The notes under the pieces: generated by a model | What the model was told of the DNA's origin: nothing | Database searches by the model: none | The model's input: the letters and a program-made list of their open reading frames with translations, nothing else | Translations under genes and position numbers: made by a program | Shown: piece by piece, positions 55,556 to 64,000 of the stretch | Layout: every line of letters starts with the position of its first letter | How positions within the stretch are numbered: the first letter of the stretch is position 1 | From: Eledone cirrhosa | Taxonomy: Eukaryota | Reading direction: 5' to 3' | DNA length: 64,000 bases | Assembly: GCA_964016885.1 (NCBI GenBank) | Contig: OZ024763.1 | Span: 24,862,001 to 24,926,000, forward strand

Positions 55556-55747
55556 CATATATATAATAATAATAATATTACTTATAGTTATATATACACT
55601 ATATACAACTATAAACAGGAAAGGTCAGTAACTCAATACTACCTTGTTACCAGTAAGAAAAAACTGTTGATGACAGCATTAATATCCATGTATCTATATG
55701 ATTGTTCAGTTAAATAAGAAGTTAATTATATGTCCAAACTTTACTAG

Positions 55748-59664: not shown

Positions 59665-60480
59665 AAGAATGAAAAAAGAAAGCAAAAAGGGAGGGGAAAG
59701 AAATGTTATTGGAAAGACGAAAGTGAGAAAGAATGAATGGAAACATAATATAGTAAAAGGAATAATAAATGAAATGGTGAATGAAATCAGATGGAAAGAA
59801 GTGGCGAAATAGATGAAGAAAGAAAGAATAAAAAGAAAATTAAGAAACAAGTAACGAAAGATATGGAGAGAGGGATGGGCAGAGGAAAGAACGAAAGAAA
59901 TGGAAAGAAAGTACGAAATGAGCAAAAGGAAGAAAGGACGAAGGAAAAAAGAAAAGAAAGATGTAGAAAGAAAATAGAAAGATGTAGAAAGAAAATAGAA
60001 AGATGTAGAAAGAAAAAGAACGAGGGAACGATAAAATGATGAAAAAATGAAAAGATGAACGAAAGGAATCGTGTAACAAATGAAATACTTGAAAGAAGGA
60101 AAAACTGAAAGAACGAAAGGAATGGTGTAACAAATGAAATACTTGAATGGATGACGGAAAAAGATTGAAAGAGAAAGACAGGAATGGCGTAACAAATGAT
60201 GAAATACTTGAATGAAGGAAAAAAAGAAAGAAAGAAAGAAAGTAAGGAATAATGAGCAGATGCTGAAAGAGTTGAATGAAGGAAAAAAAGAAGAAAAAAA
60301 AGAGAAACAAAGAAACAAAAATCTAAGAATAAAACGTAAGGAAAGGTGTAACAAATGATGAAATACTTGAATGAAGGAGAAAATGAAAGAAAGAAAGAAA
60401 GAAAGAAAGAAGGCAAGGAATGGAATTAGGAAAGAAAAGGAGAATATAGTGGAAGGAAGGTATTGATGAAGATGAAGAGT
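59665..60480. repeat. Purine-rich (GAAA) tract with repeated GTAACAAATG(ATG)AAATACTTGAA motif
   Basis: Motif occurs 4 times; AGAAAGATGTAGAAAGAAAAT occurs 3 times. Confidence 0.85.
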
Positions 60481-60601
60481 ATGACAGAGTCTGGTTGTTA
60501 TTGAAGATTTAAACAGCGTTCTACTTAATCCCATTTAAATCCCGTAGAAATTGTATCATGGCTGGAGACCGGTAACTTGTCATCCATGTACACTCTCTAG
60601 C

Positions 60602-60758
<157 letters not shown>

Positions 60759-60937
60759 CAATCTCTCTCGCTGTCCCTTTCTCTCTCTCCCTCAGTATAT
60801 ATTTATGTATATATATATATAAACAAGGTAAAAAGCAAATATCTATATATATATATATGAATGCGAATGTGCATATATATATGTATATATATATACACAC
60901 ATATATATACATATATATATATATACATGTATATATG

Positions 60938-60968
<31 letters not shown>

Positions 60969-61204
60969 ACACATATATACATGTATATGTATATATATGT
61001 GTGTGTATATATATATACATATATATATGCACATACATGTATGTATATGAGTATGTGTATATATATATACATATTTATATGCACATACATGTATGTATAT
61101 GAGTGTGTATATAAATATACGTCTATACATATAGATATATATAAATATATACATGTAAGTATATATTTATATATGCTATATATATATATATATACATAGG
61201 TTTA

Positions 61205-61308
<104 letters not shown>

Positions 61309-61694
61309 AGTGCCTTTGTCTCAGTATGTGTGCAAGTGACTAAGTACTAGAAGTTAAAGTGGTTTGTGTATATAACTTGGTTTGGAGATTTTATGTCAAT
61401 GTCTCCAAGATATATGTGTGATGTAAACTGTGAGACCCCAGGTGACGTTGGAAATAATGGTGGGGATTAAGGGGTTTGGTGGAGGGCCCTGGTGGAGGTT
61501 TCGGATCTGGCAATTAAGTCAGGTAGGAATCGTCTCCGTGACAAGAAAATAGGGGATTAAGGAGAACGGTTATACGGAAATAAGTGACATGGGAAAGAAG
61601 ATATATCAATGTTTACACTCACACAAACATACACACTCGCACATGCGTACATACAGACACACACACATACATACACACACTTGCACACACACTT

Positions 61695-61733
<39 letters not shown>

Positions 61734-61744
61734 TACACATACTT

Positions 61745-61808
<64 letters not shown>

Positions 61809-61948
61809 CACACACACATATATATAGTAATAATAAATCCGAAGAGGACTTGATAAAGATTGTATATATAAAAGCAACCAAACAGTGAGTGTGTTCTATT
61901 ATTATTTCTGGCAATATTATAACAATGTGACCCTCCCCAAATATATCA

Positions 61949-61980
<32 letters not shown>

Positions 61981-62007
61981 ACATATATATAAACCCGTAG
62001 AGCAAAT

Positions 62008-62053
<46 letters not shown>

Positions 62054-62129
62054 CGAGGGAATTGTGGTAAGGAACCAGGTGGACCATAACGCACCAGAGT
62101 ACTCAATACTTAGGGTAGTAGAGTGGGTG

Positions 62130-62242
62130 ATAGGAAAAGGTATGACTCCGACGGCAGAGCTCAAGCCGTTTCGACGGCTATTTCAGTTTTGAAATAGCCG
62201 TCGAAACGGCTTGAGCTCTGCCGTCGGGGTCATACCTTTTCC

Positions 62243-62245
<3 letters not shown>
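62130..62245. repeat. GC-rich hairpin, 56 bp arms and 4 nt loop, containing an HHR 3' half
   Basis: Arms 62130-62185/62190-62245 with one T-G wobble; arm reads GAAA-CGGC-TTGAGCTCT-GCCG-TC. Confidence 0.95.
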
Positions 62246-62275
<30 letters not shown>

Positions 62276-62747
62276 TGATTTGTTTTGTGTGTGTGTGTGT
62301 AAAGGAAATTAAGTTGACAGCGAGAAGTTCTTAAATCGTTTAATCTTTACAATTGTTTCGATGCAATTTTTTTCTACTGACACAGAACTTGGCAACATGT
62401 AATAATGATATTACTGATAACAATCAAACAGGTGGAATAATATATATACTTTACGCTAGTTTGAGTTTTAAAAACTTTGTATTTCCTCAGAAGGAAGTAC
62501 AAAGTTTTTCGATTAGAAGTATAGGCTGGCCTTTTTAGTTAAGATACACTATCCATCAATTCGCCGGACTGCCAAACAGTTTCCGTCTACCAAATTTCCC
62601 TCAGAAATCGTATTGGGATTGAACCCGGGATTTGTCACTACATAATATCATACACACACCACATATGACACACTTACACATCACCTAAAGCTATACACAA
62701 AATCATACCACATGTATCAATTAATATATTACATTATATCATAAACG

Positions 62748-62942
62748 AGGGCGGTGGATTGGCAGTTTCGGTAGAGAGTCGGACACCATGCTTTGAAGCA
62801 TAGAGTTACGTCCGTTTATGATCTGAGTTCAAATCCCGCCGAGGTTAACTTTGCCTTTCATCCTTACGGGATCGATAAAATAAAGTACGAGTAATGCACT
62901 GGGTAATTGCTGGCCTTGTGCCAAAAATAGAAACAATTATAT
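62748..62942 (+). mobile_element. Full-length family A SINE
   Basis: GGGCGGTGGATTGGCAG head, B box, body. Confidence 0.9.
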
Positions 62943-62974
62943 CATAAACGATATCACATTTAATACCACATGAA

Positions 62975-63320
62975 ACCATATATTGTATGACAAGGATTAT
63001 CAGACAAATCGTATCACACAATACACATACAGTACATAAATATCACTCACAATGTTATATTAAATAAATGTTTCACTTAATATTACATAAACCATATATC
63101 GTATGACAAGGAGTGATATACACCATAAAGATATCTCACCATCTTATACTAAATAAATATCTTATTTAATACCGAATATATTGTATGACAAGGAGTATTA
63201 TATAAAGTCGTATCACACACTTACACAGTATATCACATAAATATCACACATACAGTGTTATACACCACATAGATAAAACACAGTGTTACAGTAAATAAAT
63301 ATTTCACTTAATATTACATA
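62975..63320. repeat. Degenerate ~115 bp tandem repeat, ~3 copies
   Basis: ATATA(T/C)GTATGACAAGGA and TAAATAAATATTTCACTTAATATTACAT recur. Confidence 0.75.
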
Positions 63321-63437
63321 TCATTCAGTGTATAATATCCGTTAAAAGATGTAACACTACATCAAATACACACATACAAACTTACCTACATACACACACG
63401 CATGCATGGATACAAACACATCGACGCACACACACAT

Positions 63438-63490
<53 letters not shown>

Positions 63491-63637
63491 AATACATATA
63501 TACTTACATACACGCACATAAACACACACATTTACATACAAATATACCTACAGGCAGATATAAGCATATATGCATACACATCATGCTTATGTGTATACAT
63601 ACGTATACACATCTGTCTGCATATATACATATTTATT

Positions 63638-63916
63638 CATAAATAATGTGTAAAACGTGACAAAAATACAAAAAACATGGCGGACCATGTTTCGTATGTT
63701 TGCTAAGGGCGACAAAATGAAGAGAGACACCTACACACGCATATGCGTGTACACACACACACACACATACACTCACACGTATAGCTGCATACTTATACAT
63801 GCATGTCTATATATATGTATATGTATTTATAAATAATGTAAAACGTGATGAAAAAAACAAAAACAAAAAATTTTAAATATGGCGGACCAACTTTCGTATT
63901 TTCGCCATGGGCGACA
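63638..63916. repeat. Two-copy ~190 bp tandem duplication
   Basis: ATAAATAATGT..AAAACGTGA..ATGGCGGACCA..TTTCGTAT..GGGCGACA occurs twice. Confidence 0.8.
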
Positions 63917-63932
63917 CACAGACACATACACA

Positions 63933-63966
<34 letters not shown>

Positions 63967-64000
63967 TACACACACATTCGTATGCGCATTCATTACAGAC

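What the first reader, a model, noticed from the sequence alone, without database searches (positions are those of the whole stretch)
62130..62245. Palindrome built from half a hammerhead: axis in stem II, catalytic box replaced by mirror image
Seen: 56 bp arms; on either strand the central hairpin (GACGGCTATTTCA/TGAAATAGCCGTC) is followed by GAAA-CGGC-loop-GCCG-TC, a well-formed stem III with a GUC site, then GG(G/A)GTCA, which can pair with the upstream TGAC(T/C)CC as stem I. Where CTGATGA should lie, the reverse complement of the 3' half is found instead. Inference: cDNA stalled in stem II, folded back and was extended (snap-back), fixing a ribozyme-centred palindrome. This would be a footprint of PLE reverse transcription.
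Basis: partly seen in the sequence, partly recalled or inferred. Interest (0 to 1): 0.8.

Follow-up and report, generated by a model that had tools for sequence, protein, structure and literature searches.

The report
Head-to-head Penelope-type retroelement stub
This 116-base mirror sequence is real and is likely two head-to-head copies of the end-piece of a very abundant Penelope-type jumping gene; its centre is simply where nearly all copies of that family begin, and the complete hammerhead ribozyme it was supposed to come from was not seen.

Summary
The palindrome is real: arms 62130-62185 and 62190-62245, 55 of 56 bases paired. Laying four public runs on it shows a huge repeat family (17,499 contigs in one run, 21,938 reads in another). 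Copies abut (TA)n at two fixed 3' ends about 77 nt apart. The left arm has the long end, the right arm the short one: the known Penelope 'inverted repeat plus tail' layout. Most copies are single arms that stop at a fixed 5' end on the axis; no CTGANGA shows in the consensus beyond it (a rare parent, under about 20% of ends, is not excluded). 'Stem I' and 'stem II' follow automatically from the mirror symmetry; only GAAA-stem III-GTC is independent (49 of 20,000 shuffles). All 12 listed inverted joints keep one arm at the fixed end; 10 break the other near the inner 3' end. That fits twin priming on one RNA better than a stall in stem II. An identical hairpin junction recurs in 0.5-2% of depth, so a parent with a long stem II used for snap-back stays open (about 0.22). 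Known kind, with a testable mechanistic lead.

The parts
62013..62052 (.). (TA)n tract at the long 3' end of the left unit (target)
   Evidence: sequence; family loose ends before 62063 are (TA)n in 213 contigs and 2,787 reads
62053..62129 (-). about 77-nt 'tail' of the left unit, present on this arm only; lies between the family's two 3' ends
   Evidence: deep family coverage of 62058-62129; loose ends with (TA)n both before 62063 and before 62130
62130..62185 (-). left arm: family unit on the minus strand, starting 4-5 nt short of the family 5' end
62186..62189 (+). loop GTTT, likely decayed GTCC, the 5' start of the right arm
   Evidence: table 3: C at 62188 in 51 contigs and 43 of 69 reads, C at 62189 in 63 contigs and 67 of 68 reads
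62190..62245 (+). right arm: family unit on the plus strand ending at the family's short (inner) 3' end
   Evidence: mirror position 62130 is a (TA)n junction in 225 contigs and 3,644 reads
62198..62232 (+). hammerhead-like 3' half (C-GAAA, 4-bp stem III with GAGCTC loop, GTC); mirrored on the minus strand at 62143-62177; no CTGANGA
   Evidence: sequence; 49 of 20,000 shuffles; not the predicted fold; no Rfam hammerhead match
62246..62262 (.). (TA)n tract at the short 3' end of the right unit (target)
   Evidence: sequence
55248..55306 (+). older, single-arm copy of the same family (74% over 53 nt) ending in (TA)n at the short 3' end
   Evidence: E = 0.006 within the window

Best explanation
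The palindrome is a head-to-head pair of copies of a short, very abundant repeat between (TA)n tracts, with the long 3' end on one arm and the short 3' end on the other; it is likely the terminal piece of a Penelope-like element, laid down by twin priming on one RNA. Shown: the family has a fixed 5' end at the axis and two fixed 3' ends about 77 nt apart; most copies are single arms; inverted joints keep one arm at the fixed 5' end. Inferred: a Penelope-type RT-endonuclease nicks both strands of a (TA)n target. One nick primes at the inner start site and runs off the RNA's 5' end (right arm). The other primes at the outer start site, copies the tail, and usually stops near the inner site but sometimes reads on to within a few bases of the 5' end (left arm here). 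The two cDNA ends are then joined. The fixed 5' end would be the RNA's own start (an initiator-like AGTC; the initiator consensus is recalled). The hammerhead-like half is likely a relic of the parent's terminal repeat and plays no shown part.
For:: two (TA)n-joined 3' ends (225 and 213 contigs; 3,644 and 2,787 reads). Read depth falls from 12,198 at 62173-77 to 85 at 62188-92, and loose ends behind 62184 share only TGGAC(T). 12 of 12 listed opposite-strand joints have one side at 62178-62184; 10 of 12 have the other within 22 nt of the inner end 62130 (p = 0.002-0.004), 7 of them inside the tail. The window loop is closest to the sense 5' start, so the short-ended arm is the 5'-complete one. 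Both arms share a base at 62139/62236 that only about 430 of 10,022 reads in one mate direction keep, pointing to one template. Within-window comparisons: three copies of a second family with a canonical minimal hammerhead also begin at a common 5' point about 55 nt upstream of their ribozyme, and a SINE-like repeat with no hammerhead noted forms the same asymmetric fold-back (26612-26698). Literature: inverted pLTR with tail on one arm and head-to-head palindromes (PMC3846280; PMC8557442); a PLE protein extends both nicked strands and its two RT start sites delimit the tail (PMC11167929).
Against: No RT or GIY-YIG partner was found, so PLE membership rests on architecture; the tail (about 77 nt) is longer than the 30-40 nt reported. 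Merging joints within 3 nt leaves 5 of 7 near the inner end (p = 0.11), and only 15 of 20 joint rows were shown. For joints other than this locus the data do not show which arm has which 3' end. The loop-orientation argument rests on 2 versus 3 changes, and palindrome spacers can invert by recombination (established knowledge, recalled). One exact junction recurs in at least 51 contigs (2.0% of depth in X1, 0.5% in X8), which a templated hairpin explains more simply. [quoted passage not shown] No transcription start was measured.
Confidence: 0.55

Rival explanations
1. One reading: the parent terminal repeat holds a complete hammerhead whose stem II is a natural 12-bp hairpin with the loop AGTCCA. 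The cDNA folds back on this hairpin and primes its own second strand, replacing CTGANGA by the mirror image; opening of the hairpin tip gives the many single arms that begin in the loop.
For: The same junction recurs in 51-63 contigs and about 66 reads from 3-9 start places; it closes with a G-C pair directly before GAAA, as conserved in PLE hammerheads (PMC4209133); 5' ends of single arms cluster at 62178-62190; the 3' half is rare in shuffles and resembles by eye the loop-stem II-GAAAC letters of the canonical family at 18211. Five reads in X8 stop at 62202, where a parent would leave the mirror.
Against: No CTGANGA in any listed loose end; any single continuation is limited to under about 17-29% of ends. 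11 of 12 listed inverted joints lie away from the exact axis. The 5'-complete arm here lacks the tail the other arm has. Fixed 5' ends also occur in the second family far from its stem II. Reported PLE helix II lengths are 6-8 bp (PMC4209133).
Confidence: 0.22
2. Snap-back at the fixed 5' end without any ribozyme: a full-length run-off cDNA turns round and primes on itself at variable places, and one arm is later trimmed at the inner site by the endonuclease.
For: One side of 12 of 12 listed joints is the fixed end; self-priming was proposed for PLE head-to-head palindromes (PMC3846280); endonuclease resolution was proposed for the tail (PMC8557442); an AGTC stretch near 62140 in one subfamily could pair with the cDNA end and fit the joints at 62136-38.
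Against: Does not by itself explain joints piling up inside the tail just before the inner end, and needs trimming or loop inversion to fit this locus.
Confidence: 0.13
3. A MITE or fold-back DNA element, or a palindromic master amplified as a unit.
For: Long near-perfect inverted arms; TA-rich target; one junction recurs.
Against: 98-99.5% of family depth is single-arm; ends are asymmetric; inverted joints vary; no duplication can be told within (TA)n.
Confidence: 0.06
4. Assembly or amplification artefact at this locus.
For: No listed piece spans the stretch; palindromes are a known artefact class (established knowledge).
Against: The arms differ at one base, the loop has decayed, each arm ends at a family-typical end, and the same junction type is in raw reads of a separate study (X8).
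Confidence: 0.04

Closest known systems
Inverted-pLTR insertions of endonuclease-bearing Penelope-like elements (Arkhipova et al. 2013, PMC3846280: passages and Discussion read; Craig et al. 2021, PMC8557442: passages and supplement searches)
   Same: Head-to-head inverted copy at the 5' end, palindrome at the junction, optional tail on one arm, microsatellite or AT-rich target.
   Different: No ORF attached; unit only about 60-135 nt; tail about 77 nt instead of 30-40; 5' end fixed across thousands of copies; no complete hammerhead seen.
PAc Poseidon element of Anolis (Frangieh et al. 2024, PMC11167929: passages and second half of main text read)
   Same: Two RT start sites delimiting the tail, AT-rich target, both strands nicked and extended, hammerhead dispensable for insertion in vitro.
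   Different: That paper gives no model for inverted pairs in the parts read; here the partner protein is unknown.
Twin priming in L1 retrotransposition (Ostertag and Kazazian 2001; seen only as a reference-list entry in PMC3649969, mechanism recalled)
   Same: Two target ends prime on one RNA; the inversion point falls near the inner priming site.
   Different: Here both priming sites are fixed family positions, the inner cDNA always reaches a fixed 5' end, and the arms can overlap almost fully.
Minimal and type I hammerheads of metazoan PLEs (Cervera and de la Pena 2014, PMC4209133: parts 1-2 of 4 read)
   Same: C-GAAA, palindromic stem III loop, GUC site, position just inside the 3' end.
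   Different: CUGANGA absent; stem II and stem I exist only through the mirror arm; predicted fold hides the GAAA.

Membership tests
Penelope-like element (EN+) terminal piece | RT plus GIY-YIG ORF belonging to the family | tested here: inconclusive
   No such ORF noticed among ORFs of 110 aa or more in 14000-64000 (read by eye, no family scan); three protein searches with 43-46-residue translations of the unit were blank; no genome is held
Penelope-like element (EN+) terminal piece | Inverted 5'-adjacent copy (head-to-head) | tested here: met
   (12 opposite-strand joints listed)
Penelope-like element (EN+) terminal piece | Optional tail: two fixed 3' ends, tail on one arm | tested here: met
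   table 7; about 77 nt, longer than the 30-40 nt reported
Penelope-like element (EN+) terminal piece | AT-rich or microsatellite target | tested here: met
   (TA)n at both ends here and in family loose ends
Penelope-like element (EN+) terminal piece | Hammerhead in the terminal repeat (canonical clades; Naiads lack it) | tested here: inconclusive
Hammerhead ribozyme | CUGANGA box before stem II | tested here: not met
   absent at the locus and from listed loose ends (20 of 376 rows shown)
Hammerhead ribozyme | GAAA, stem III, UH site | tested here: met
   62203-62225; 49 of 20,000 shuffles
Hammerhead ribozyme | Stems I and II independent of the palindrome, three-way fold | tested here: not met
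   mirror positions; predicted folds are a long hairpin or a competing short hairpin
Hammerhead ribozyme | Self-cleavage | not testable with these tools
   none
MITE | Terminal inverted repeats in most copies, symmetric ends | tested here: not met
   only 0.5-2.0% of depth crosses the axis into the mirror arm; tail on one arm
MITE | Fixed-length target-site duplication | tested here: inconclusive
   both ends lie in (TA)n

The most novel reading that the evidence does not exclude
A Penelope-type family uses its own hammerhead's stem II as a built-in hairpin primer: nearly every cDNA snaps back there for second-strand synthesis, the hairpin tip is opened, and this leaves thousands of genomic stubs that all begin in the ribozyme's loop II, plus palindromes in which the catalytic box is overwritten by its mirror image. 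That would give PLE hammerheads a DNA-level, non-catalytic job.
Probability: 0.2. Interest if true: 0.72.

Novelty: new member of a known kind. Interest (0 to 1): 0.36.

Why it matters
The structure itself is a described product of Penelope-like elements. Its value is as a test bed: how these elements make inverted ends and tails is stated as open in PMC8557442 and PMC11167929. A family with thousands of short copies, one fixed 5' end and two fixed 3' ends lets one count, in a single assembly, whether inverted pairs arise by twin priming, by snap-back at the RNA end, or by snap-back at a ribozyme hairpin; the three make different predictions about which arm carries the tail. Two searches and one for self-priming listed no paper that appears from title and abstract to apply twin priming to PLE palindromes, but the library lacks most subscription papers, including earlier Penelope mechanism papers, so this is not a claim of priority.

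Tried and rejected
Own genome: none held, so no census of copies. Rfam: 0 matches at gathering score in the window and no hammerhead family among 115 matches at E up to 10 in 60000-64000; weak, since the canonical minimal hammerhead at 18211 was also missed. Pattern scans: 0 in viral contigs, 0 in metagenomes with a 26-mer; 9 metagenome and 10 genome loci for a 20-mer are chance hits in GC-rich DNA, 9-16 of 50 identities downstream in all 19. Protein searches with translations of the unit: blank. No RNA holder listed. Craig et al. supplement: no match to eight short motifs of the unit apart from one unrelated hit (lines wrap at 70 letters, so matches can be missed); the 3' end of Naiad_Obim shows no likeness by eye (the 3' end of Naiad_Ovul was not viewed). 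PMC13282606 (octopus repeat annotation; passages only, supplement listed but not read) has no mention of hammerheads or palindromes; its repeat library could name this family. bioRxiv 10.64898/2026.07.22.740005 (passages; supplements closed) had nothing on palindromes. One paper on dimeric PLE hammerheads was not held. Run X4 (another organism label) gave only 2 contigs of 151 nt, so it says nothing about that organism's own genome. A type II hammerhead reading (CUGANGA after the cleavage site) was considered and fails: the letters there are not CUGANGA. 'Stem I' rejected as evidence because it is the mirror of the same bases.

Full report
1. Observation. The palindrome is at 62130-62185 / 62190-62245 with one mismatch and a 4-nt loop; it folds as one long hairpin, z = -20.9. 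The window is an animal genome about 61% simple repeat; I take it to be octopus-like from recollection of its SINE, which no call tested. The hammerhead-like letters GAAA, CGGC/GCCG and GTC are present, and 49 of 20,000 shuffles of the arm hold such a half on either strand. The proposed stems I and II are mirror positions and carry no information. One unit alone is predicted to fold a competing hairpin around the GAAA. Rfam gives no hammerhead, but it also misses a canonical minimal hammerhead at 18211.

2. The family. No genome is held, so I laid four of ten listed runs on 62058-62203 at 80% likeness. Laid: 17,499 of 16.3 million contigs (X1, possibly the window's own sample), 464 of 0.76 million (X5), 2 of 8.2 million (X4, another organism label) and 21,938 of 12.5 million raw reads (X8, a separate study, RAD-seq). 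If X8 were random reads of a 2.7-Gb genome (size recalled) this would be about 19,000 copies; RAD-seq is not random, so read this as thousands to tens of thousands. Tables were cut: 20 of 376 loose-end rows, 15 of 20 joint rows, 40 of 52 variant rows.

3. Ends. Copies meet (TA)n at two places: before 62130 (225 contigs, 3,644 reads) and about 62053 (loose ends before 62063: 213 contigs, 2,787 reads). The left arm has the long end and the right arm stops at the mirror of 62130. This is the 'tail on one inverted repeat' of PMC3846280 and PMC8557442; PMC11167929 shows the tail is the stretch between two RT start sites. At the other end, X8 depth is 12,198 at 62173-77, 1,486 at 62183-87 and 85 at 62188-92. 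Loose ends behind 62184 (245 contigs, 14 contigs, 2,616 reads) agree on TGGAC(T) and then only at 0.49-0.54 overall, the level expected from five or six fixed letters plus mixed AT-rich flanks. So the family has a fixed 5' end on the axis. No CTGANGA shows; a single continuation in more than about 17-29% of ends would have changed the consensus, so a rare parent is not excluded.

4. Inverted joints. A junction with the loop AGTCCA and close variants runs on into the mirror arm in 2.0% of X1 depth and 0.5% of X8 depth (51-63 contigs; about 66 reads from 3-9 starts). The window's loop differs from the sense form of the T variant by two C-to-T changes and from the antisense forms by three or four changes, so the right, short-ended arm is likely the 5'-complete one. 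All 12 listed opposite-strand joints have one side at 62178-62184. The other side is 62108, 09, 14, 19, 24, 25, 26, 36, 37, 38, 53 and 84: 10 of 12 within 22 nt of the inner 3' end (p = 0.002-0.004; 5 of 7, p = 0.11, if neighbours are merged). In X8, 189 reads support variable joints against 10 joint reads plus about 66 collinear reads at the exact axis.

5. Mechanism. Twin priming on one RNA fits these together: the inner-primed cDNA runs to the RNA's 5' end, the outer-primed cDNA copies the tail and usually stops near the inner site, sometimes reading almost to the end; joining them gives a head-to-head pair with the tail on one arm. The ends and joints are shown; the enzyme, the RNA start and the order of events are inferred. 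A simple snap-back cannot copy a tail that the first cDNA lacks, unless the loop later inverted or the arm was trimmed. Two within-window comparisons point away from a stem II stall: a second family has a common 5' start about 55 nt upstream of its intact hammerhead in 3 of 3 copies, and a SINE-like repeat shows the same asymmetric fold-back. Against my reading: no partner ORF was found, the statistics are thin, arm-to-end assignment is known for this one locus only, PMC11167929 saw no strand difference in start sites, and the recurring exact junction is what a templated 12-bp stem II would give. Five X8 reads stop at 62202, where such a parent would leave the mirror, but a CpG change at 62203 explains them equally well and their loose letters were not shown.

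6. Comparison and novelty. It works like the inverted insertions of endonuclease-bearing Penelope-like elements and meets three of five features tested; ORF and hammerhead are inconclusive, so membership is likely, not proven. It is not a hammerhead (CUGANGA not met) and not a MITE (single arms dominate). Earlier notes of this scan on other genomes reached similar readings (unchecked, not counted as support). Papers seen: PMC3846280 passages and Discussion; PMC8557442 passages and supplement searches; PMC11167929 passages and part of the main text; PMC4209133 parts 1-2 of 4; PMC13282606, PMC3649969 and one bioRxiv preprint passages only. Unseen supplements of PMC13282606 and the preprint may name this family.

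7. Verdict. Real feature, new member of a known kind, interest 0.36. The lead worth keeping is that this family lets one count, in one assembly, which of three mechanisms builds Penelope palindromes.

Noticed in passing
window 46903-47162: A second palindrome, 130-bp arms, 99% matched, no loop, (CA)n on both sides, unrelated in sequence. Each arm has GAAA-CCA/TGG-TA about 14 nt from the axis, a weak hammerhead-like half without the C before GAAA (236 of 20,000 shuffles have it in the first 30 nt). Both arms have the same 3' end.
   Followed up: partly
window 26539-26704: Head-to-head fold-back of the abundant SINE-like repeat, 39-bp arms, 9-nt loop in the sense of the shorter arm: same asymmetry as the finding, no hammerhead motif noted.
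   Followed up: partly
window 18086-18264 (-), 26197-26360 (-), 55375-55559 (+): Three stubs of a second family with a canonical minimal hammerhead (intact core at 18211), common 5' start about 55 nt upstream of it and a pyrimidine-rich 3' end before a microsatellite that resembles the finding's short end.
   Followed up: partly
window 23910 (+), 47262 (+), 51513 (-), 46669 (+): Further CTGATGA-bearing stubs; 23910 and 47262 look related by eye and have long stem II-like spacers before GAAA.
   Followed up: no
tables 5c and 7: One X1 contig and one X4 contig carry short tandem repeats of the 14 nt around the 5' end, as if the polymerase slipped or re-primed there.
   Followed up: no
loose ends behind 62138-62139: A subfamily with a small insertion just downstream of the GTC site (133 contigs, 1,574 reads).
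   Followed up: no
window 14544-14754 and 24926-25136: Two 96% identical copies of a 211-nt repeat; the first sits within an inverted microsatellite-rich stretch 14366-14890.
   Followed up: no
window 9132-9331: 200-N scaffold gap; about 61% of the window is tandem or simple repeat.
   Followed up: no
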